Of a stretch of DNA of 64,000 nt, positions 25,161 through 58,466 are shown in pieces. The notes under the pieces were generated by a model. The model was not told where the DNA came from. It did no database searches and saw only the letters and a list, made by a program, of their open reading frames with translations. Source of the DNA: Isurus oxyrinchus (lineage: Eukaryota). The translations under genes and the position numbers were made by a program. Position 1 is the stretch's first letter. Each line of letters begins with the position of its first letter. The DNA lies in the NCBI GenBank assembly GCA_026770705.1, contig JANJGN010000052.1, positions 682,001 through 746,000 on the forward strand. The letters are read 5' to 3'.

Positions 25161-25862
25161 CTTTTTAATTATGACATGTGTGTCTGTGTGAGTGTGTGTG
25201 TGTATCTGTGTGAATGTGTGTGAACGTGTGTGTGTGTGTGTGTACCTGTGTGCATGTGTATTGCTGCATCTTTATTATAAATGTTATTTAAAAATAGTGA
25301 TCACACAAGCCTGGTTTCTAATAAAATGAAACTGCAAACAATTTACAGTAAAGTGAAACGTACAGGAATAATCTATTTTGAGCTGATGATATATAATTAT
25401 ACATGATGCATGTTGCTAATTTCAAACATCATCTGAAATATGGTAGGTCTGACAGAGCAGCTTTTCCTCAGTGCTCAGCCTCCGACAGTGCAGCACTCCC
25501 TCAGTACTGACCCTCTGACAGTGCAGCACTCTCTCAGTACTGACCCTCTGACAGTGCAGCATTTCCTCAGCGCTCAGCCTCCGACAGTGCAGCACTCCCT
25601 CAGTACTGACCCTCCGACAGTGCAGCACTCCCTCATCACTGGCCCTCTGACAGTGCAGGACTCCCTCAAAAATTAAAAGAATATATGGTTAACACCTTTG
25701 CTTGTCTTTGAGGTTGTTGAAGGTTGCAGCTGTTCAAGGTTGATTGGTTTCCTGTGGCATCTTTGTGGTGATTTGATTCAGATTTGCACTTTGTTGAAGA
25801 TAATTGTATCTCACAGATGGTGCGGTCATACTGCCAGAGTCCAGGTGTACACAGTATCTGAC

Positions 25863-27250
25863 CAAAACAAAAACAGAATTAGCTGGAAAAACTCAGCAGG
25901 TCTGGCAGCATCGGCGGAGAAGAAAAGAGTTGATGTTTCGAGTCCTCATGACCCTTCAACTGAACTAGGTGAGTCCAAGGAGAAGGGTGAAATATAAGCT
26001 GGTTTAAGGTGTGTGTGTGTGGGGGGTGGGGTGGGGTGGGGGTGGGGGGGCAGCGGGGTTGGGTGGAGGGAGAGAAGTGGAGAGGGTTGGTGTGGTTGTA
26101 GGGACAAACAAGCAGTGATAGAAGCAGATCATCAAAAGATGTCACAGACAACAGAACAAAAGAACACATAGGTGTTAAAGTTGGTGATATTATCTAAACG
26201 AATGTGCTAATTAAGAATGGATGGTAGGGCACTCAAGGTACAGCTCTAGTGTGGGTGGGGGGAGCATAAAATATTTAAAAATAATGGAAATATCCTCAAC
26301 CCCCTCCTATGGCACCTCCCCATGCCCACGCAATAGATGCAACACCTGCCCCTTCACTTCCTCTCTCCTCACCGTCCAAGGGCCCAAACACTCCTTTCAA
26401 GTGAAGCAGCATTTCACTTGCATTTCCCCCAACTTAGTCTAGTGTATTCGTTGCTCCCAATGTGGTCTCCTCTACATTGGAGAGACCAAACGTAAACTGG
26501 GCGACTGCTTTGCAGAACACCTGCGGTCTGTCCACAAGAATGACCCAGACCTCCCTGTCGCTTGCCATTTTAACACTCCACCCTGCTCTCTTGCCCACAT
26601 GTCTGTCCTTGGCCTGCTGCACTGTTCCAGTGAAGCCCAACGCAAACTGGAGGAACAACACCTCATCTTCCGACCAGGCACCTTACAGCCTTCCCGACTG
26701 AATATTGAGTTCAACAACTTTAGGTCTTGACCTCCCTCCCCCATCCCCACCCCCTTTCTGTTTCTTCCTCCTTGCTTTTGTTTTTTCCAATAAATTATAT
26801 AGATTTTTCTTTTCCCACCTATTTCCATTATTTTTAAATATTTTTAAATCTTTTATGCTCCCCCCACCCCCACAAGAGCTGTACCTTAATTCCCCAACCA
26901 TCCATTCTTAATTAGCACATTTGTTTAGATATATATCACCTACTTCAACACCTCTGTGTTCTTTTGTTCTGTTGTCTGTGACATCTTTTGATGATCTGCT
27001 TCTATCACTGCTTGTTTGTCCCTACAACAACACCCCCCTCTCAACTTCTCAGCCCCCACCCAACCCCGCTGCCCTCCCCCCACCCCCCCAACACACATAC
27101 ACACCCCTTAAACCAGCTTATATTTCACCCCTTCCTTGGACTCACCTAGTTCTGTTGAAGGGTCATGAGGACTCGAAACGTCAACTCTTTTCTTCTCCAC
27201 CGATGCTGCCAGACCTGCTGAGTTTTTCCAGGTAATTCTGTTTTTGTTTT
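25863..27250 (+). mobile_element. Penelope-like retroelement fragment: GIY-YIG endonuclease end with inverted terminal duplication
   Basis: HFTCISPNLV*CIRCSQCGLLYIGETKRKL..FAEHL at ~26410-26530; 25863-26290 is the reverse complement of ~26820-27250. Confidence 0.85.
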
Positions 27251-27254
27251 AGGT

Positions 27255-29230
27255 TTAATACATGATCTCAGAATAAATGATCCCCTGGAAAACAGTGACC
27301 ATAACCTGGTAGAATTTAGCATTCCCTCTGAGACTGAGAAACTTGGGTCGGAAGCAACTGTGCTGGACTTAAATAAGTGTAATTACAAAGGAATAAGGAC
27401 AGGGTTGTCTGGAGTGGACTGGGAAAGGGGTTTAGCAGAAAAGATGGAGGATGAACAATGGCAGATCTTTAAGAAAATAGCTCATGACTCACAACAAAGA
27501 TATATCCCAGTGAGGAAGAAGGATTGTAGGAAGAGAATAAACCAACCTGGGTTACCCAAAGAAGTTAAGGTGTGTGTCAAATTGAAAGAGAAACCATGCA
27601 ATATGGTTAGTGGTAAGCCAGAGGATTGGGAACGTTTTAAAAACCAACAGAAGATGACCAAAAAATAAATAAAGAGGCAGAAAACTATGTAAACTAGCAA
27701 ATTATTAAAAAAAGGACAGTAAAAGCTTCTTTAAGTATATAAAAAGGGAGAGAGAGACCAAAGTGAACATGGGCCCCTTAGAGAACTAGGCTGGGGAAAT
27801 AATAATGAGGAGCCAGGAAATGACAGAGGAGTTGAATAAATACTTTGCATCAGTCTTCACGGTAGAACACACTAATAGCATTCCAAAAATACTAAATAAT
27901 CAAGGGGCAAAAGGGGGGTGGGGAGAGGAAATAAATACAATAACTATCACTAGAGAGTAATACTAGGGAAACTCATGGGTCTCAAGTCTGATAGGTCCCC
28001 TGGACCTGATAGGTTGCATCTTAGGATATTAAAGGAAGTAGATGCAGAGATAGTGGATGTACTGGTTTTAATCTTCCAAGAATCCTTAGATTCTGGGCAA
28101 GTCCCAGAGGATTGGAAATCTGCCAAAGTAACACCCATATTCAAAAAGGGAGGGAGACAACAAACAGGTAACTATAGGCCAGTGAGCTTAACATCTGTCA
28201 TTGGGAACATGTTAGAGTCCATTATAAAGGATGTAATAGCAGACTATTTAGAAATGCATAATTTAATCACACACAGGCTTCATGAAGGGGAAATCATGCA
28301 TGACAAATTTATTAGAATTCTTTGAGGAGGTAACAAACAGGATAGATAAAGGGGAGCCAGTAGATGTAATATATTTGGATTTCCAAAAGTCGTTCAGTAA
28401 AGTATCACATATAAGGCTACTTAATAAGATAAGAGCCCATGGTGTTGGGGGCAGTATATTAGCATGGATAGAGGATCGGCGAACTAATAGAAGTCAGAGA
28501 GTTGAGATAAGGGGGGCATTTTCAGGATGGCAACCTCTGGATTGCCACAGGGATCAGTGCTGTTAATAGGGAAGGCAGGTGGAATGTTGGCCTTTATTTC
28601 AAAGGGAATGGAGTATAAAAATAGGGAAGCCTTGCTAAAACTGTACAAGGCACTAGTTAGACCACACCTAGAATACTGTGAGCAGATTTGGTCCCCTTAT
28701 CTAAGGAAAGATGTACTGGTATTGGAGGCAGTCCAGAGAAGGTTCACTAGGTTGATCCCAGTAATGGAGGGATTTTCATATGAGAAGAGGTTGAGTAGGA
28801 TGGGCCTGTACTCATTGGAGTTTAGGAGAATGAGAGCTGACCTTATTGAAACATATAAGATTCTTAGGCGCTTGACAGGGTAGATGCTGAGAGGTTGTTT
28901 CCCCTTGTGGGAGAGTCTAGGACCAGAGGGCTTAATCTCAGAGTAAGGGGTCACCCATTTAAGACAGAGATGAGGAGTTTCTTCTCTCAGAGGGTAGTGA
29001 ATGTGTGGAATTCTTTACTGCAGAGAGCTGCAGAGGCTGGGTCATTAATTATATTCAAGGCTGAGATACACAGTTTTTTAATCAGTCAGGGAATCAAAGG
29101 CTATGGGGAAGAGGCAGGAAAGTGGAGTTCAGGATTGTCAGATCAGCCATAGTGTCATTGAATGGCGGAGCAGAGTTGATTGGCCGAATGACCTCCTTCT
29201 GCTCTGACGTCTTGTGGTCTTATGGTCTTA
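27255..29230 (+). mobile_element. CR1 LINE ORF2, degenerate with an internal deletion
   Basis: SPGPDRLH, NYRPVSLTS, YLDFQKSF, LYKALVRPHLEYC, RADLIETYKIL and CR1 3' UTR. Confidence 0.92.
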
Positions 29231-29745
29231 TCACCCTCCAACAGTGCAGAGCTCCCTAATTACTGACCCTCCGACATTGCAGCACTCCCTCAGTACTGAC
29301 CCTCCGACAGTGCAGCACTCCCTCAGTACTGACCCTCTGACAGTGCAGCACTCCCTCAGTACTGTTCCTCCAACAGTGCAGCACTCCCTCAGTACTGATT
29401 CTCTGACAGTGAAGTACTTGCTCAGTACTGACTATGCGGCAGTGCAGCTTTCACAGCACCTGCCCTCCAACAGTGCAGCAGGTCATCAGTACTCACGCTC
29501 CAAGAGGGCAGCTCTCCCTCAGTACTGACCCTCTGACAGTGCAGCACTACCTCAGTACTGACCCTCCAACAGTGCAGCACTCCATCAGTACTGACCCTCC
29601 AACAGTACAGCACTCCCTCAGTACTGAACTGAAGTGTCTGACTGAATTAAGTGCTTTGTGGTGAAGGAACCTACACTGATATCACACCTTTCACATTCTC
29701 AGGGTCTCTCAAAGTGTTTCACAGTCAATGTAAGTAACTGATCAG

Positions 29746-30006
29746 ACACACCACAGAATCTCTCAATTAATTCTCTTGATATGATTAACGCTTCATCGAT
29801 CAATATAATTGAGGGGAATTCGGCAGTGATAATCTGCTCTGTCGAGAGCTTCCCAGCTTCTAACCTGACGTGGCGACATCTTAATGTCCCAATGAACAGA
29901 ACAAGTTCCAACAATGAGCTGTGGTTGGTGATTCCTCAGGTTACATCCAGGGACACTGGAGACTATCAGTGTGTGGCAGAGAATGAACATGGAGCAGTGG
30001 AGGGAT
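29746..30006 (+). pseudogene. Region B: truncated C2 repeat exon
   Basis: Near-identical to gene A C2 exons, but polypyrimidine tract deleted (compare 53221-53242) and 3' end/donor replaced by a LINE. Confidence 0.85.
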
Positions 30007-30029
30007 TACACAGAATTGAACGTTCTCTT

Positions 30030-31075
30030 GTTATTAGCTCATGGGATGTGGGCATTGTTGACAAGACCAGAAATTATTGCCCATCTGTAACTGCCCCTTG
30101 AGAAGGTGGTGGTGAGCTGCCTTCTTTAACCAAAGCAGTCCATGTGGTGTAGGCACACCCACAGTGCTGTTAGGGAGGGAGTTCCAGGATTTTGTCCCAG
30201 TGATGGTGAAGGAACGGCCGATATAGTTCCAAGTCCAGGGCAGACCACCACCTCAAGTTCGCTTCCAAATCACACACCATACTGACTTGGAACTGTCTCA
30301 GCGGAAGAGGTTAAGAGTTTGGAAGGTGCTGTCGAAGGAGCCTTGGTGAGTTGCTGCAGCGCATCTTGTAGATGGTTCACACACTGCTGCCATTGTGTGC
30401 CAGAGATGTAGGGTATGAATGTTTATGCTGGTGGATGGGCTGTCGATCAAACAAGCTGCTCCAGGATGGTGTCGAGCTTCTTGAGTGTTGTTGGAGCTGC
30501 ACTTATCCAGCCAAGTGGAGATTATTCCATCACACTCCTGACTTGTACCTGGTCGATGGTGGGCAGGCTTTGGGGAGTCAGGAGTTGAATTACTCACCAC
30601 AGAGTTCCCAGACTCATACTCGCATTTGTAGCCACATTATTTCCTGTTGCTGGGTTGTTGCCAGGGCCAATAGCCTTTGCTGTAGCCAGTATCATCAGCT
30701 GATTCCTGATGTCACGTGGAGTCAATCGAATTGTCTGAAAGCTGACATCTGTGATGCTAGGACCCTCTGGAGGAGGCCGAGATGGATCATCCACTCAGCA
30801 CTTCTGGCTGAACATGGTTGCCAATGCTTCAGCCTTGTCGTTTGCACTGATGTGCTGAGCTCCCCCATCATTAAGGATGGGGATATTTGTGGAACATCCT
30901 CCTCCTGTTAGATCTTTAATTGTCCATCACCATTCATGACTGGATGTGGCAGGACTGCAGAGCTTAGATCTTACCCGTTGGTTGTGGGATCGCTTTGCTC
31001 TGTCTATAGCATGTTGTTTCCGCTGTTTGGTGTGTATGAAGTCCTGTGTGTCACCTCAGCAGCTTGGCACCTCTG
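30030..31075 (-). mobile_element. LINE fragments, same family as 19341-21410
   Basis: Reverse complement of 20850-21360-like sequence; IRLTPRDI...KAIGPGNNP. Confidence 0.75.
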
Positions 31076-31265: not shown

Positions 31266-31362
31266 GGCGAGATTCCAATGAATGGAAAGCAGGATTGCTT
31301 GGAGCTGGAATCTGTTTGAGTGTTGGACTGAGTGGATTCTTCATCTTCAAGTGTGTGAGAAA
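31266..31362 (+). CDS. Region B: intact orphan transmembrane exon
   Basis: ttttacag|..RDSNEWKAGLLGAGICLSVGLSGFFIFKCVRK|GTAAGT; 97 nt, same size and phase as the gene A TM exon. Confidence 0.7.
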
Positions 31363-31664
31363 GTAAGTGTGAAGGTTTAATTGGTTGTTTTTGAAAATGT
31401 TTTCTTCAAACTTCTCTCCTTATAGAAAGAACTTGCATTTCTATAACACCTTTTACAATCCAAAACCCTTCACAGCCCCTGAAGAGTTTTGATGTTCACC
31501 TACTGTTTAACATCTCATCCAACATTCACTGTTTCACAACTCAGACCTGTAATTGGCAGTGTTGACCTGGACCATAAGATACTTTGTGACCTACTGAGGA
31601 TGTGAAAGGTGCTATATAAATGAAAACCTTTCTTTTGTTAGTGAATGCAATCTCTTTCCTTTTT

Positions 31665-31930
31665 CCATGTTTCATTCACTCTCTCTTACCTCCACTAATG
31701 CACGCCTTCTCATTCTCTCTCTCATTCACTCTCTCTCCAATCTCCACTAATGCTCTCCTTCTCATTCTCTCTCTCATTCACTCTCTCTTACCTCCACTAA
31801 TGCTCTCCTTCTCATTCTCTCTCTCATTCACTCTCTCTCCAATCTCCACTAGCTCTCCTTCTCATTCTCTCCCTCATTCACTCTCTCTCCTATCTCCACT
31901 AATGCTCTCCTTCTCATTCTTTCTCTCGTC
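31665..31930. repeat. Pyrimidine-rich degenerate tandem repeat
   Basis: Recurring CTCCACTAATGCTCTCCTTCTCATTCTCTCTCTCATTCACTCTCTCT. Confidence 0.8.
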
Positions 31931-32160
31931 CTCTTACACGTTGTTCAGTCTCTCACATTTTTAAGGAGCGCTGAGCAACATCTGCTCCTTCAGAAGATCC
32001 ACCTCAACACCTGGATTGAGCAGTGAATTGAAACTCGCTCAACGACTGCTCAGCTTTACACAGGAATCACGTCACAGAGTCAGGACACAAAGGGTTAACA
32101 GTTTGCTTACAACACAACACTAAGTCCCTACGTTTCAATGAAAGGGTTTTCACAATTGTT

Positions 32161-32468
32161 CCCCAATTCCTGATTTGACTCACAGAGACACATGCACCCT
32201 TTCTAATTAAACACACAGAGGGAGCAGCACAGGAAGAGGTCATTCAGCCCAAGCAGAGCGTGTGGGCAGTTCCTCCCCAGGCGAGCAGTCGGACAGGTCC
32301 TGGGTAAGTAACGGAACGATTGGAATTCACTTCCACCACCAACACCGTCCTTTGTTGATGTTGTGACTTTATAAAGACAGATTCCAATGATTGATGCCTT
32401 TGAAAGATTTCTACTGATGATTGAGATCTGGGTGTGAGGCTCAGGTTTGTTGTACAGAACATCTTTCT
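32161..32468 (+). promoter_or_regulatory. Promoter/exon 1 copy B (donor at 32303/32304), no leader exon
   Basis: Near-identical to 1075-1378; homology stops at a CR1 3' fragment (~32470-32740). Confidence 0.7.
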
Positions 32469-32814
32469 GGTTAAATTATGCAGACAGGTTACACACAGTC
32501 TACGATTATATTCCCTCGGGTCTAGAAGATTAAGAAGGGATCTAATTGAACGGTTCAAACTGATTAAACACTCGATAGGGTCGATAGAGAGAAGCTATTC
32601 CCTCGGGTGGGGGTGGGTGGTGGGTGTCGGGTGGAGTCCAGAACAAGGGGGCCGGAACTTCAGATTGGAGCCAGGCCGTTCAGGGGTGATGTCAGGAAGC
32701 ACTTCTTCACACAAAGGGAAGTGGAAATCTGGAACTCTCTCCCCAATAATCAAACCCAACACCGAATACACATCATGTTGATAGTCACTCTGTCCATTTC
32801 CATCTCTATTACAG

Positions 32815-32919
32815 AAGAGAGGCGAGAGGAAAGCAGGAATCAAATCAAACCACCGTGTTGATGAATATCGAGGTCCTGTTTATGAAAACTGTGAGCGTGG
32901 TTGGGCTTTGAGGAATCAG
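32815..32919 (+). CDS. Region B: cytoplasmic exon with YEN motif
   Basis: ctctattacag|KRGERKAGIKSNHRVDEYRGPVYENCERGWALRNQ|GTGAGT; phase 0-0, open. Confidence 0.65.
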
Positions 32920-33052
32920 GTGAGTCACACACCACAGGATCCCCAGCCTCTCAGCTGCTCCAGTAGCCTGGTTATTGATATGGCTGCTCCAGTCCTGTAT
33001 CTGCAATGTTTTATACAGTCACTCCCAAACCCAACCAAACTCACACCCAACA

Positions 33053-33862
33053 CCGTTCAGAATCAATAATCAAACCCCGATCAGAATCAATAATCAAACC
33101 CCGTTCAGAATCAATAATCAAACCCCGTTCAGAATCAATAATCACACCCCGTTCAGAATCAATAATCAAACCCCGTTCAGAATCAATAATCAAACCCCGT
33201 TCAGTATCAATAATCAAACCCCGTTCAGAATCAATAATCAAACCCCGTTCAGAATAAATAATCAAACCCCATTCAGAATCAATAATCAAACCCCGTTCAG
33301 TATCAATAACCAAACCCCGTTCAATATCAATAATCAAACCCCATTCAGAATGAATAATCACACCCCGTTCAGTATCAATAATCAAACCCCGTTCAATATC
33401 AATAATCAAACCCCATTCAGTATCAATAATCAAACCCCGATCAGTATCAATAATCAAACCCCGATCAGTATCAATAATCAAACCCAGTTCAGAATCAATA
33501 ATCAAACCCCGTTCAGTATCAATAATCAAACCCCGTTCAGTATCAATAATCAAACCCCGTTCAGAATTAATAATCAAACCCCGTTCAGAATCAATAATCA
33601 AACCCCGATCAGTATCAATAATCAAACCCCGTTCAAAATCAATAATCAAACCCTGTTCAGAATCAATAAACAAACCCCGTTCAGAATCAATAATCAAACC
33701 CCGTTCAGAATTAATAATCAAACCTCGTTCAGTATCAATAATCAAACCCCGTTCAGAATCAATAATCAAACCCCGTTCAGTATCAATAATCAAACTCCGT
33801 TCAGTATCAATAATCAAACCACGTTCAGTATCAATAATCAAACCCTGTTCAGTATCAATAAT
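33053..33862. repeat. 24-bp minisatellite (CCCCGTTCAGAATCAATAATCAAA), ~34 units
   Basis: Direct tandem repeat. Confidence 0.95.
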
Positions 33863-33960
33863 TAATGTATCTATTGTGGGTGGAATTTTCGATTTGGATC
33901 AATAATACTAAACACTGATCACTCTGATTGTCACTCTGATCATTTCTGTTTCTATTACAG

Positions 33961-34077
33961 AAGAAAGATGAGAAGGATCTGGAAATGAAATCTAACCGCG
34001 GAGTCAATCCTGATACAGATGATGATCTTTACGCAAACTGTGAATTTGCTGAGGATTCTGTTTATGGGAATTTATAA
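33961..34077 (+). CDS. Region B: terminal cytoplasmic exon with two tyrosine motifs
   Basis: ttctattacag|KKDEKDLEMKSNRGVNPDTDDDLYANCEFAEDSVYGNL*; SVYGNL fits the ITIM consensus; paralogous to 32815-32919. Confidence 0.7.
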   Translation, partial: KKDEKDLEMKSNRGVNPDTDDDLYANCEFAEDSVYGNL

Positions 34078-36283: not shown

Positions 36284-36424
36284 CACTTCCTCATTTTGTC
36301 TCACAGTGACACATCAACCCTTTCTAATTAAACACAAATAGGGAGCAGCACAGGAAGAGGTCATTCAGCCCAAGCAGAGCGTGTGGGCAGTTCCTCCCCA
36401 GGCGAGCAGTCGGACAGGTCCTGG
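36284..36424 (+). promoter_or_regulatory. Promoter/exon 1 copy C
   Basis: CACTTCCTCATTTT ETS site and conserved exon ending GG|GTAAGT. Confidence 0.65.
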
Positions 36425-38467: not shown

Positions 38468-38608
38468 AACTTCCTCATTTTGTCTCACAGTGACACATCC
38501 ACCCTTTCTAATTAAACACACAGAGGGAGCAGCACAGGAAGAGGTCATTCAGCCCAAGCAGAGCGTGTGGGCAGTTCCTCCCCAGGCGAGCAGTCGGACA
38601 GGTCCTGG
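38468..38608 (+). promoter_or_regulatory. Promoter/exon 1 of gene D
   Basis: AACTTCCTCATTTT and conserved exon ending GG|GTAAGT. Confidence 0.65.
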
Positions 38609-45000: not shown

Positions 45001-48000
45001 TTAGATTTAAAACAAATTCAACAAGTTAACACAATGCCCTGGACAGTGGAATTCCAAATGGATTTTCCCCAACTTCAGTTCTGTTGGATAGCAGGCTTGT
45101 GCACAAACAGGGTCCTGAGGACCATGAGCCAATGTAGAATGAACTTGTCCACTCCTGTGTCCAGGATTCTCTTCCATCCGTTATGAAACATTGGGGAGTT
45201 CCATGTGTGTCCTGTAGATGGTCCACACTGCAGCCACTGTGCCCCAGTGATGGAGGGGGTGGATATCGAGTCTAGTGGATCTACAAACCATCCAGAGTTA
45301 AATATTGATATTTCTCTCCCCAGTTGGACTGTCACAAGAGTGGAAAGGTGACACTCCACGAGAGGTGACAGCACAGAAAGGTTCGTGTGTACAGATTCCA
45401 TGTAATTACAATTACCCATCACATTTGTTGGAGAAAACACGTGTTGGAATCTGGAAAATGAGAAGGGACAAATGGCATACATCGTCTATAGCCTTTCACT
45501 CCAAGGATCACAGTCACGAGTTACCACGGTTCCACCATCGGACCCGGCTGTCTGGAGACCTGAAAGATGGTGACTGTTCCCTGATTATAAACAACATCAG
45601 ACGGGAAGATGCAGGACCTTATTTTTTCACGATAAAATTTGGCAATGGTCCGAGCCATAACTATTACCCTGTAACCCAGCTTCACGTTTCTGGTAAGTGC
45701 TGTGTTATAATTACTCAACAATTCACATTCAACACTCAATGGGAAATAATAGTGTTTGATTTGCTTGTTTTTTGGCCGTGTTAACCAGCGTCACTATTTT
45801 TAATGATTTGTCTATTTCTGCTCCCAGATCCATGAGCTTATTGTGTGTGATTGAATCCACATCATAGCTGTAACGTAAACCGAGCTGAGGGGTGATGACA
45901 CCTCCCCGCTGAGTGAAGTATCTCCTCCCCACTACACCTTCCACCCCTCACACTGTCCGTGTAAACCCCTGTCCCATCTCCAGCCTCTCTTTCCCCTCCA
46001 AAGTCCTTGAACGTGTTTCCATCTCCCGAATCCGTTCCCATCTTTCCCGGAACTCCATGTTTGAATCCCTCCAATCAGGTTCCCACCCCAGCCACTGTGC
46101 TGAAACAGCTCTTATCAAGGTCACAAATGGCATCCTGTGTGACTGTGACAAAGGTCAACTTTCCCTCCTCGTCCTTCTCGATCTGTCTGCAGCCTTTGAC
46201 CCGCTCGACCACACCATCCTCCTCCAACCCCTCTCCACTGTCGTCCAGCTGGGTGGGACTGCTCTCCCCTGGCTCCATTCTTATCCATCTCATCGTAGCC
46301 AGAGAATCACTTGCAATGGCTTTGCAGCATCATCTGAACAGTATTAGTTTTCACCTGTCCACTGAGGATCCCCAGCTCTACCTCACCACCACCTCTCTCG
46401 ACTCCTCCACTGCTGCTAAATTATCAGGCTGCTTATCCGACATCCAGTACTGGATGGGCAGAAATTCCCTCCAATTAAATATTGGAAAGACTGAAGCCAT
46501 TGTCTTCATTCCCCACTCCAAACTCTGTTCCCTCGCTACCAACTCCATTCCTCTCCCTGGCAGCTCTCTGAGATTGAAGCCAATCTGTTCACAGCTTTGT
46601 TGTCCCATTTGATCCTGAGATGAGCTTCCGGCCTCATATCTGCGCCCTCACTAACACCGTCTATTTCCACCTCCGTAACATCGTACGACTTCACCCTGTC
46701 TCAGCTCATCTGCTGCTGAAACCCTCATCCACGCCTTCATTACCTCCAGACTCGACTGTTCCAACACACGGTCTACACTCCATAAACTTGAGGCCATCCA
46801 AAACTGCTGACCACGTCCTTACTCACACCAAGTCCCATTCCCTTATCACCCGCTCTGCTCGATGACCGAGACTGGCTCCTGGTCAAGCAAAGTCTCAATG
46901 TCCAAATTTTCATCTTTGTTTCCTCACTATCTCTGTAATCTCCTCCTCCTCCTCCGCCAGCCCCTACAACCCTCCCTATCTCTGTAACTTCTTTCAGTGA
47001 CCAGAAACCACCCCTATCTCAGAACCTTCCTCCAGCTCCAACAACCCTCCCTTTCTCTGCACCATTCTCCAGCCACTCCAACAAACCCTATCTCTAAACC
47101 CCCTTCCAGTCCCTACAGCAATCTCTATCTATGTATCCTCCTCCAGTCCCTACAACCCTCCCTATCTCTATAAACTCCAGTCCCTACAGCCCTCCCTATC
47201 TCTATAATCTCCTCCAGTACCTACATCCCTCCCTATTTCTATAACCTCCTCCAATCCCTACAGACCTCCCTATGTCTATAACCTCCCCCAGTCCTTACAG
47301 CCCTCCCTATCTCTATAACCTCCTACAGTTCCTACAGCCCTCCCTATCTCTATAACCTCCCCCAGTCCTTATAGCACTCTTTCTCACTGTAACCTCCTCC
47401 AATCCCTACAGCCCTCCCTATCTCGATAACCTCCTCCAGTCCCTACATCCCTCCCTATCTTGATAACCTCCTCCAGTACCTACAGCATTCTCTATCTCTG
47501 TAACTTCCTCCAGCCACAACAAACGTCCCTATATCTGTAACCCAATCCTGTACCTACAAACCCCCTATCTCCATAACATTTCCCATTCCCGTCCACCCTC
47601 CCTATCTCTGTTACTATCTTTTGCCCCTAAAGCCTCCCTTTCACTGTAAATTTCTCCAGTCCCTCCAAACCCCCTGTCTCTGTAACCTACTCAGGCCCCT
47701 AAAGCCTCCCTTATCCTTTAACGTCCAACAGTCCCTACAATCCCCTTTTCGCTCAAAGCTCCTCAAGACCCAACAACGTTCCCTAACTCTGTAACCCCAG
47801 CCTGCCCCAACAACCCTTCCTTTCACTGTAAGTTCCACCAGCCCCTCCAACCTTCCCTATATCTGTAACCCCATCCTGCCCCTACAACCCTCCCTGGCTC
47901 TGTAAACTCCTACAGCCCCTCCAATCTTTCCTACCTCTGTAGCCTCACTACAGCCTCTGTACAAAGTACAGCCCCTACAACCCCCCGAGATCACTGCACT

Positions 48001-54000: not shown

Positions 54001-55368
54001 TTCCTGTTAGTGAAAAGCTTACTTCATTTTCTCACCTTTCCAGTGTTCAGTTTTGCCATCATGTCCAATGACCCTATTTATAATGGGGGCATCCTATGTA
54101 AACGTCACACTGTCTTTACATCCTCCCACCAGTGGTGGCACTGTGGTGCTTAACCTTGCACCTCCCAGCTTTTCAGCCAACTTCACTTCACAATTTGCTA
54201 CACATGCTGTAAGGTCATCAAAATTAACTTATATATCAAATGGTAGATTTGATAATACAGTTTATTGAAAGGTTCATCCGCGCTCTGGGAAGGGTTTACA
54301 CTCTCCAGGAAGCAGGAATAGGCTGGATGTTGGGGAGTTCATCTTTTCCCAGAGAGTCGGGATCTTCGGGAATGTGCTGTCAGTGGGTGTGGTGGTTGCT
54401 GTTTCTCTGTTGCCTTCAAGAGGGATCTGGAGTGGTTACTAACTGGGGGAGAGATCATGGAAGCAGAGAATGGTACAGCACAGGAGGAGGCCATTCAGCC
54501 CATTGAGCCTGTGCCAGGTCTTTCAATGTTCTATCCAATCAGATCCACTAACCACCACTCCACTTTGCCCCCATCTTCTTCCTTCAAGTGTTTATCCAAT
54601 TTCCCTTTTGAAAGTTCCTATTGAATCTGCTTCCACCGCCCTTTCAGGCAGCACCTTCCAGATCACAACAACTCGCTCTGTCAAAACAAATTCTCCTCAT
54701 CTCCCCCTCCAGTTGGTCAATCTGTGTCCCTCTGGTTACCGACCCTCCTGCCCCTTAAATACATCGATACTGTTCACCTCAACCACTCCCTGTGGGAGTG
54801 AGTTCCACATTCTCCCCTCTATCTGGGTAAAGATTGGAACTGTTTATTAAGCGGGGGGTGTAACTCCGTGGGGGAGTCCATCTCGATCCTGCCCGATTCG
54901 CACACACGTCCGAGATGGATTTCCACCCTGCACTAAACGTTTCCAGAATTTTCTACAGCACAATCCTGTACACAGCGATGGAGAGAAACATTGGACAGGG
55001 AGTCCAACAGCACAATGATCCATTCTCACCAATGTTCCACGCTAAGGGGAAAGTTCCGATTGTCCACTCTTAGAGTGTTTACAATGAAAACATTCATTCC
55101 ACATTGAATCCCAGTGGATGGGTCAATATTACAGCAAATGTTGCAGTGATATGAAGCTTGATTGTTCAGCCAGAGTGAGAGATTGAAAGCGGAGAGTCAG
55201 TGATGATTTCTTTCTGTGTGTTCTCTAGACAGTGGAGGAGAGATTCTGCACGTGATCCTGATCCTGGGAATACAAGCTGTGATATTCCTTGTGGCTGTGG
55301 TTATCACTATCGCTGGAGTCTGTGTCTGGGAGAGACAAACAGTGAAAGGAAGTCGACAGACTGTTTGA
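39059..55368 (+). CDS. Gene D: Siglec-like receptor with two V-set domains and a short tail; join(39059-39098,45324-45692,49695-50060,50789-51085,53243-53524,55229-55368), ~497 aa
   Basis: All introns phase 1 with AG/GT; no promoter or leader copy between the two V exons; TM followed by 12 residues and a stop. Confidence 0.8.
40100..42940 (-). mobile_element. Degenerate Ty3/Gypsy LTR retrotransposon internal region with a nested SINE (40625-40945, plus)
   Basis: Protease KIDTGAS; integrase HGH..WPGMNNDL..CQE and TTSSPHYPRSNSLAE*MMHTVK. Confidence 0.8.
43392..45230 (-). mobile_element. LTR-like elements upstream of V1
   Basis: TG...CA-bounded segment to ~44646; 44930-45070 is reverse-complement-similar to 19960-20100; partly shared with 62342-63240. 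Confidence 0.45.
45324..45692 (+). CDS. Gene D V1 exon (essential Arg replaced by Thr)
   Basis: KGSCVQIPC, GDCSLII, GPYFFTIKF with ACG at 45629-45631; 369 nt, phase 1-1. Confidence 0.9.
45870..48300 (+). mobile_element. L2-type LINE with an internal ~37-bp CT-rich satellite (~46925-47990)
   Basis: ETALIKVTNGIL..LLVLLDLSAAFD.LDH; DPQLYL; LQLNIGKTEAI. Confidence 0.88.
48850..49590 (-). mobile_element. CR1 LINE 3' end
   Basis: FPLVGESRTREH..FKTEMRRNFLSQR..LWNSLPQ on minus. Confidence 0.88.
49695..50060 (+). CDS. Gene D V2 exon (essential Arg present, extra Cys)
   Basis: AEPSQEW..PCHYSYPLCLEN..GPYFFRIEF with AGA at 49997-49999; 366 nt; near-identical to gene A V. Confidence 0.9.
50789..51085 (+). 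CDS. Gene D C2 (Siglec domain-2 type) exon
   Basis: 297 nt, near-identical to 6487-6783. Confidence 0.9.
51408..51560 (+). pseudogene. 3' half of a C2 repeat exon (5' half and acceptor lost)
   Basis: MNRTSSNNELWLVIP..DYQCVAENEHG with donor; downstream intron duplicated after 53524. Confidence 0.85.
52388..52503. mobile_element. Minimal palindromic Penelope-terminus insertion
   Basis: GTTGACGTTTCGAGTCCTCATGACC ... GGTCATGAGGACTCGAAACATCAAC inverted arms. Confidence 0.7.
53243..53524 (+). CDS. Gene D C2 repeat-type exon
   Basis: 282 nt, phase 1-1, open, both Cys. Confidence 0.85.
55229..55368 (+). CDS. Gene D transmembrane and short-tail exon
   Basis: ttctctag|(Y)SGGEILHVILILGIQAVIFLVAVVITIAGVCVWERQTVKGSRQTV*; phase 1. 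Confidence 0.8.
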
Positions 55369-58325: not shown

Positions 58326-58466
58326 CACTTCCTCATTTTGTCTCACAGTGACACATCCACCCTTTCTAATTAAACACACAGAGGGGGCAGCACAGGAAGA
58401 GGTCATTCAGCCCAAGCAGAGCGTGTGGGCAGTTCCTCCCCAGGCGAGCAGTCGGACAGGTACTGG
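58326..58466 (+). promoter_or_regulatory. Promoter/exon 1 of gene E
   Basis: CACTTCCTCATTTT and conserved exon ending GG|GTAAGT. Confidence 0.65.

What the first reader, a model, noticed from the sequence alone, without database searches (positions are those of the whole stretch)
31266..34077. Hidden second tail type: orphan TM plus duplicated YxNCE exons
Seen: three exons absent from the ORF track have clean splice sites and open frames: a TM paralog, an exon with PVYENCE, and a terminal exon with DDDLYANCE and EDSVYGNL*. The last two are diverged duplicates with similar acceptors. No V or intact C2 exon lies between them and gene A. Known: pYxN binds Grb2-family SH2 domains and SxYxxL is an ITIM. 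Inference: either a decaying third receptor type, or an alternative C-terminus that gene A C2 exons (phase 1) could reach by skipping their own TM.
Basis: partly seen in the sequence, partly recalled or inferred. Interest (0 to 1): 0.7.

Follow-up and report, generated by a model that had tools for sequence, protein, structure and literature searches.

The report
Orphaned tail of shark YxN-type Siglec
These exons are a headless leftover copy of a shark immune receptor that is intact and spliced elsewhere in the genome, and its tail, conserved across sharks, likely signals through Grb2-type adaptor proteins rather than the usual inhibitory or activating Siglec routes.

Summary
The three exons are real, but they do not join in frame.

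This copy is an orphan. A deletion removed its leader, V and first C2 exons, and 27 nt including the remaining C2 exon's donor are also gone. Four near-identical orphans exist, two with a frameshifted TM exon.

The tail type is not decaying. Of 20 paralogous loci checked, 3 assemble into complete V-C2-TM-tail reading frames. RNA contigs show every junction and carry the non-orphan allele. Named proteins from ten shark genera and probably one ray share the tail. Asn at Y+2 is kept in 20 of 20, the ITIM consensus in only 7. Grb2-type signalling is inferred, not shown.

Exon X also stands in front of leader exons and is spliced to one as 5' UTR. An alternative tail for gene A is unsupported. The scan has noted this gene family before, but not this tail. 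No description was found in print.

The parts
29746..30007 (+). C2-type Ig exon relic; acceptor kept, last codons and splice donor removed by a 27-nt deletion
   Evidence: 95-99% identical to gene A's C2 repeats; deletion seen against an intact paralog; junction matched at 99-100% in only 4 of the 40 scored places
25669..28580 (.). Site of the deletion: first exon, leader, V and C2-set exons of a type-B gene lie between the same flanks in other loci and are absent here
   Evidence: Collinear flanks on both sides in C52 (two loci), C71 and C1130 (exon places)
31266..31362 (+). Type-B transmembrane exon, phase 1 to 2, no charged residue in the hydrophobic span
   Evidence: RNA loose ends join it to an intact C2 end in runs X1 and X6
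32219..32303 (+).
   Evidence: Restores the frame; found after TM-B in 30 of 30 copies, 28 intact; TM-to-X and X-to-E2 joints in RNA; present in 20 named proteins
32815..32919 (+). E2, phase 0 to 0, YENC motif; internal duplicate of E3
   Evidence: open with YENC in 30 of 30 best copies; E2-to-E3 joint in X6 and X7, loose ends in X1
33045..33865 (.). 24-bp minisatellite in the E2-E3 intron, of variable length among copies
   Evidence: Sequence, self-alignments, E2-E3 distances
33961..34077 (+). E3, terminal exon with YANC and YGNL motifs and the stop
   Evidence: 40 of 40 scored matches at 99-100% among 139 candidates
1130..19147 (+). Gene A (context): X-like 5' exon 1130-1214, leader 1606-1687, V 5262-5627, C2-set 6487-6783, seven full C2 repeats, TM-A 16415-16511, 17207-17288, terminal exon 18899-19147 with ILYANI and TEYTQI
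   Evidence: Assembles to 1034 aa without an internal stop; Pfam; PDB

Best explanation
This is the four-exon membrane anchor and tail of a shark Siglec-like receptor class, here cut off from its head by a deletion and therefore likely a non-functional leftover, while intact copies elsewhere are spliced and are predicted to signal by docking Grb2-family adaptors on their YxN motifs. SHOWN: the exon structure and frame; loss of leader, V and C2-set exons and of the C2 donor in this copy; four such orphans; complete reading frames at other loci; spliced junctions; conservation of the tail across sharks; E2 as a duplicate of E3. INFERRED: the window copy makes no protein (about 0.85). Ligand binding by the V domain would lead Src/Syk-type kinases to phosphorylate the acid-flanked tyrosines. 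These would recruit Grb2/Grap/Gads SH2 domains directly, without a charged-TM adaptor (about 0.6). The E2 duplication would raise the number of docking sites from two to three.
For: Frame. Deletion: window flanks 18801-22996/25669 and 28580-29627 are collinear with loci that hold X, leader, V and C2-set between them. Donor loss. Decay: a 1-nt TM deletion in 2 of 4 orphans. Intact genes of 557, 463 and 462 aa at C52:2.59-2.61 Mb, C1130 and C1343. RNA: C2-to-TM (X1, X6), TM-to-X (X6, X7), X-to-E2 (X7, X1), E2-to-E3 (X1, X6, X7); the three joints inside the tail are listed with GT..AG ends. Alleles: orphans have A at 32827 and 32847 (4 of 30 copies), the others G; all contigs over 32847 in X1, X2, X6 and X7 read G. 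Homologues: P0037 and P0038 have the same four-exon tail, and related tails occur in ten shark genera and probably Mobula. Motif: N at Y+2 in 20 of 20, ITIM consensus in 7 of 20. Grb2 SH2 binds YXNX (PMC2709368, passage).
Against: All four tail exons in this window are still open with canonical splice sites, so the copy is not visibly decayed beyond the C2 donor. The RNA runs are coded, held as contigs and not shown to be the same species or individual, so the orphan allele may simply be absent from those animals. Runs X5 and X9 showed none of the tail junctions. The 20 homologues were picked by likeness to E3 or by a visible YxN end, which inflates the 20 of 20. Two of them (P0009, P0080) have lost the inner YxN. 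One sample (X1, X2) also shows a TM-to-E2 joint that skips X and removes all tyrosines. No binding or signalling was tested. The 20 loci came from the 40 best-scoring of 139 candidates, not a random sample.
Confidence: 0.75

Rival explanations
1. The tail is an ordinary inhibitory tail: the terminal SxYxxL is an ITIM that recruits SHP-1/SHP-2, and the YxNC motifs are accessory, as in CD22. The window copy is still a relic.
For: The last motif in this genome fits S/I/V/LxYxxI/V/L (consensus from PMC4810170, passage), as do 7 of 20 homologues including the squalomorph ones. CD22 combines ITIMs with a Grb2 site (PMC8710542, passage).
Against: 13 of 20 homologues fail the consensus, mostly with A or P at Y-2, while N at Y+2 is kept. 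The family already has a separate ITIM plus ITSM-like tail, type A.
Confidence: 0.2
2. The orphan is an alternative C-terminus of gene A, reached by splicing from a phase-1 C2 exon past gene A's own TM and tail.
For: The phases are compatible. The tail exons are intact here and in the C121 twin. The C2 end joined to TM-B in RNA is a sequence that gene A's C2 exons also have, so that junction cannot be assigned to a gene.
Against: Gene A has its own stop and A(A/T)TAAA hexamers from 19945 on, about 11 kb before TM-B. A deletion of an ordinary neighbouring gene explains the layout. Two of 4 orphans have a frameshifted TM. RNA over E2 shows only the non-orphan letter.
Confidence: 0.07
3. In the orphan, exon X works as a first exon with its own promoter and drives an X-E2-E3 transcript that is non-coding or makes a short cytosolic peptide.
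For: The 313 bp around X are 94-96% identical to the copies that precede leader exons. X is spliced to a leader exon in one contig.
Against: TM-to-X joints show that X is an internal exon in tail B. X has no ATG. The ACTTCCTC element (PU.1-like, label recalled) is present upstream of 4 of 4 leader-side copies but altered in the tail copy. Start sites cannot be read from contigs.
Confidence: 0.06

Closest known systems
CD33-related Siglecs and MAG (Siglec-5, CD33, Siglec-8, MAG are the best PDB matches)
   Same: V-set domain with the F-strand arginine, C2-set domains, type I membrane topology, a fast-evolving cluster with broken copies, and inhibitory and charged-TM forms side by side.
   Different: The review section read (PMC13358205 section 21) lists ITIM-type, adaptor-coupled, sialoadhesin and MAG types; it lists no class whose tail is built of repeated YxN motifs. 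Orthology to any mammalian Siglec was not tested.
CD22 (Siglec-2)
   Same: A Siglec with a Grb2-binding tyrosine (PMC8710542 passage; PMC5302901 title and passages).
   Different: CD22 has six tyrosines, three in ITIMs. The shark tail has two or three YxN motifs and at most one poorly conserved ITIM. CD22's V domain is a much weaker match (E 1e-5 against 2e-15).
Prolectin and catfish LITR 1.1b
   Same: Immune receptors with a YxN motif; prolectin co-purifies with Grb2 (PMC2709368 passage), and LITR 1.1b is proposed to bind it directly (PMC4810170 passages).
   Different: Prolectin is a C-type lectin, and LITR 1.1b also carries ITIMs and an ITSM. These are functional analogues, not relatives.
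[quoted passage not shown]
   Same: The same TM-X-E2-E3 tail at 81-94% identity per exon.
   Different: They carry automatic names only; the tail type is not distinguished from other tails under the same name.

Membership tests
Siglec (intact type-B paralogs and gene A) | N-terminal V-set Ig domain | tested here: met
   Gene A's V exon hits Pfam V-set and Ig_CD22 above cut-off, and its best PDB hits are Siglecs. Type-B paralog V exons are 92-93% identical in DNA.
Siglec (intact type-B paralogs and gene A) | Conserved F-strand arginine | tested here: met
   FFRIE aligns with Siglec-5 FFRVE and is present in the 3 complete type-B frames. Its identification as the essential arginine is recalled; its role is from PMC13358205 section 21.
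Siglec (intact type-B paralogs and gene A) | C2-set domains, single TM and cytoplasmic tail | tested here: met
Siglec (intact type-B paralogs and gene A) | Sialic-acid-dependent glycan binding | not testable with these tools
   Needs a glycan array with an arginine mutant.
Siglec (the window's orphan copy) | Leader and V-set domain in the same gene | tested here: not met
   Absent between gene A and the TM exon; the copy is a fragment of a Siglec-like gene, not a receptor on its own.
ITIM-bearing inhibitory Siglecs | Conserved S/I/V/LxYxxI/V/L motif | tested here: inconclusive
   Met in this genome and in 7 of 20 homologues, not met in 13.
ITIM-bearing inhibitory Siglecs | SHP-1/SHP-2 recruitment | not testable with these tools
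   Needs a pull-down.
Activating (charged-TM, adaptor-coupled) Siglecs | Basic residue inside the TM helix and a short tail | tested here: not met
   TM-B has no charged residue in its hydrophobic span and has a long tail; a separate Arg-bearing TM type exists in the family.
Grb2-recruiting YxN receptors | YxN motifs in the cytoplasmic tail | tested here: met
   Three here; the terminal one is kept in 20 of 20 selected homologues, and two or more are present in 18 of 20.
Grb2-recruiting YxN receptors | Phosphorylation-dependent Grb2 SH2 binding | not testable with these tools
   No phosphotyrosine modelling or assay was available.
CD33-related Siglec subgroup | Common descent with mammalian CD33-related Siglecs rather than MAG or CD22 | not tested
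   No tree was built; Siglec-5, CD33 and MAG score within 5 bits of each other.

The most novel reading that the evidence does not exclude
Sharks have a third, old, multi-copy Siglec signalling class that is neither ITIM-inhibitory nor adaptor-coupled. It wires glycan recognition straight to Grb2-Ras/PI3K, sets signal strength by duplicating a YxNC exon, and is switched off by skipping exon X. The same exon X, with its upstream flank, has been recruited as the first exon of the family's genes, so one exon serves as coding sequence in one class and as 5' UTR in all of them.
Probability: 0.3. Interest if true: 0.65.

Novelty: new variant of a known kind. Interest (0 to 1): 0.42.

Why it matters
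Siglecs are usually sorted into inhibitory (ITIM) and activating (charged TM) forms. A conserved, highly amplified shark class with a YxN-based tail would add a third output and show how tails are built by exon duplication. It can be tested with chimeric receptors in standard cell lines. The dual use of exon X also explains fused or mis-started automatic gene models (P0036, P0039, P0042). The window's own copy matters little: it is one of many broken duplicates in a birth-and-death cluster.

Tried and rejected
2) A Pfam scan of the TM, E3 and gene A's terminal exon found no family.
3) The skip-X frame of E2 had no match among 116 proteins, so it is not treated as the conserved frame.
4) The first read-laying was crowded by repeats at 30095-30550. 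It was repeated on a narrower stretch. Six of 21 listed runs were laid; X5 and X9 showed no tail junction, which proves nothing for contigs. Depth values were not used to rank anything.
5) My first exon boundaries for leader, V and C2 were off, and the C2 query failed; both were corrected.
6) The donor pattern missed a GTAGAAC variant. By eye, 22 of 30 TM-B copies keep the upstream C2 donor (5 of them on partial C2 exons) and 8 lack it, including this window and its C121 twin.
7) Paper searches: siglec+shark+cartilaginous fish, siglec+evolution+chondrichth (27), siglec+grb2+YxN (28), YGNL+grb2+transmembrane adaptor (32, none), siglec-10+grb2+binding motif+ITIM (39), siglec+elasmobranch (40), and siglec+fish+evolution+CD33-related+cytoplasmic tail (44). 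No listing describes shark Siglec tails. PMC3015071 was not held, and most subscription papers are not searchable. No supplements were opened; Supplementary file 9 of PMC8455134 lists Siglec gene families and may bear on family size.
8) No fold or complex prediction was run: the tail is short and probably disordered, and phosphotyrosine cannot be modelled.
9) No family tree was built.

Full report
Setting. The window is a cluster of Siglec-like genes. The V exon at 5262-5627 hits Pfam V-set and Ig_CD22. Its best solved relatives are Siglec-5, CD33, MAG and Siglec-8, with the FFR motif aligned. All named hits among 116 database relatives are from sharks, rays and skates, with the highest V identities (up to 93%) in Cetorhinus and Carcharodon, so the animal is inferred to be a shark. 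Gene A assembles to 1034 aa with a tail ending in ILYANI and TEYTQI.

Checking the observation. E2 and E3 are duplicates: 0 of 2000 shuffles reached the alignment score, with or without flanks. However, the TM exon ends in phase 2 and the YENC frame of E2 starts in phase 0, so the three-exon join stops inside E2. An 85-nt exon X at 32219-32303 (phase 2 to 0) restores one open frame with three YxN motifs. X follows the TM exon in 30 of 30 best TM copies, 28 of them intact, and precedes E2 in 30 of 30 best E2 copies. These sets were chosen for likeness to the window, so they overstate intactness.

Why the tail is orphaned. E3 has at least 40 matches at 99-100% among 139 candidates; the TM exon gave 336 candidates and E2 gave 96, with 40 scored each. 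I took 20 of the 40 best E3 places with upstream DNA. Nine carry E3 alone and 11 carry TM-X-E2-E3. Of the 11, three are twins of the window, two are other orphans and six have a V exon upstream. Three of the six give complete frames of 557, 463 and 462 aa; in the last, the nearest leader is 8.6 kb upstream of the V exon, with a partial V between. One is open from V onward with no leader in the 20 kb fetched. Two have stops in V. In four loci the DNA is collinear with the window on both sides of a block that holds X, leader, V and C2-set; in the window that block is missing between about 25669 and 28580. The remaining C2 exon has lost 27 nt including its donor, and that junction occurs at 99-100% in only four places. 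The same four places share A at 32827 and 32847, where the other 26 of 30 copies have G. Two of the four have a 1-nt deletion in the TM exon. The C121 twin is 99.85% identical and may be an allele or a very recent duplicate.

RNA. Six of 21 listed runs were laid, all as Logan contigs whose RNA status is a guess, from coded organisms. The junctions seen were: an intact C2 end to TM (loose ends, X1 and X6); TM to X (X7 with 43 letters on the short side, X6 with 18); X to E2 (X7 with 71, loose ends in X1); and E2 to E3 (X7, X6, loose ends in X1). The joints inside the tail fall at the GT..AG sites. X5 and X9 showed none of them. Every contig over 32847 in X1, X2, X6 and X7 reads G, and the X1 loose end into E2 reads G at 32827, so the spliced RNA matches non-orphan copies. 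This does not prove that the orphan is silent, because those animals may lack it. One sample (X1, X2) also joins TM to E2 directly, flagged 'between: not known'. That form would end without tyrosines, with its stop beginning 11 nt before the last junction, close enough to escape decay by the recalled 50-nt rule.

Conservation. Cetorhinus models P0037 and P0038 have the same four-exon tail. Related tails, with or without E2, occur in Carcharodon, Mustelus, Rhincodon, Stegostoma, Chiloscyllium, Hemiscyllium, Pristiophorus and Heptranchias, in part (TM and X) in Heterodontus and Scyliorhinus, and probably in Mobula. E2-bearing forms occur in Cetorhinus, Mustelus and four carpet-shark genera, so the duplication predates their split (inference; the order assignments are recalled). 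In 20 selected tails the last tyrosine has Asn at +2 in all 20, but the ITIM consensus holds in only 7; 18 have two or more YxN. Selection by likeness to E3 inflates the first number, not the contrast.

How it likely works. Grb2's SH2 domain binds YXNX (PMC2709368, passage). The ITIM consensus is S/I/V/LxYxxI/V/L, and a YxN in catfish LITR 1.1b is proposed to bind Grb2 directly (PMC4810170, passages). The type-B tyrosines follow acidic residues, the TM helix has no charge, and the family already has an ITIM-type tail and an Arg-bearing TM type. I therefore infer that intact type-B receptors are phosphorylated on ligand binding and recruit Grb2-family adaptors directly (about 0.6), with the E2 duplication adding a third site. 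The outcome could be activating or dampening: the title of PMC5302901 describes a Grb2-dependent attenuation by CD22 (title and passages seen). The window copy likely makes no protein (about 0.85).

Exon X. About 313 bp around X recur at 1130, 36340, 38524 and 58382, each about 0.4-0.5 kb before a leader exon, at 94-96% identity for three and 86% over a longer stretch for 38524. One contig in X6 continues from the end of X into letters that match the start of leader exons. Carcharodon model P0042 begins with X-like sequence joined to the leader, and Cetorhinus models P0036 and P0039 run from the tail X into a second X and leader. X is thus a coding exon in type-B tails and a 5' UTR exon before leaders. 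Which use came first was not determined.

Compared with what is known. The review section read (PMC13358205 section 21) defines Siglecs by a V-set domain with a conserved arginine, C2-set domains, a TM and a tail, and sorts them into ITIM and adaptor-coupled types. The intact paralogs meet the sequence features; sialic-acid binding is untested, and the orphan itself fails for lack of a V domain. CD22 carries a Grb2 motif beside ITIMs (PMC8710542, passage). The whale shark genome paper mentions Siglecs once, as an enriched family (PMC8455134, passage; supplement not seen). Seven searches listed no description of shark Siglec tails, though most subscription papers are not covered. Earlier scan notes cover this gene family, but look-ups by sequence and by words found none on this tail.

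Verdict. The locus is an ordinary broken duplicate. What it points to is a conserved, amplified shark Siglec class with a YxN tail and a dual-use exon: a new variant of a known kind, with an inferred mechanism. Interest 0.42.

Noticed in passing
window 1130-1214, 36340-36424, 38524-38608, 58382-58466: Copies of exon X stand before leader exons and are spliced to them as 5' UTR (one contig in X6; model P0042). All four keep an upstream ACTTCCTC element that the tail copy lacks. The copy at 36340 has lost its acceptor AG.
   Followed up: partly
window 31362 to 32815: A TM-to-E2 joint that skips X in one sample (X1, X2) would give a membrane receptor without tail tyrosines and with a late stop, a possible decoy isoform.
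   Followed up: partly
window 55228-55365: A third TM exon type, which carries Arg in relatives (GIRAVIF), reads GIQAVIF here, so this copy has lost the charged residue.
   Followed up: no
window 17207-17288: Gene A's first tail exon has TNYIAL, an extra tyrosine motif, where most paralogs read TSDIAL; Carcharodon P0032 shares it.
   Followed up: no
L032, L040, L042, L044, L046, L048, L049, L050 (about 4800-6800 and 9350-10000): In 8 of 20 loci, E3 lacks TM and E2, breaks at about window 33850, and has an X-leader(-V) unit on the opposite strand 2.7-4.1 kb upstream: an amplified inversion-breakpoint unit.
   Followed up: no
window 36340-63726: Three X-leader units, three V exons (45324, 49695, 63349) and partial C2 exons follow the orphan; several look incomplete, for example the V at 45324 has no C2-set exon before the next V.
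   Followed up: no
window 7003-15577: Gene A has seven full tandem C2 exons at about 93-99% identity plus two partial ones (7003-7097 with an internal deletion, and 15531-15577).
   Followed up: partly
L082, L092, L094, L096, L098: The C2 donor before TM-B has been lost independently in other copies by GT-to-AT change or by a different deletion.
   Followed up: no
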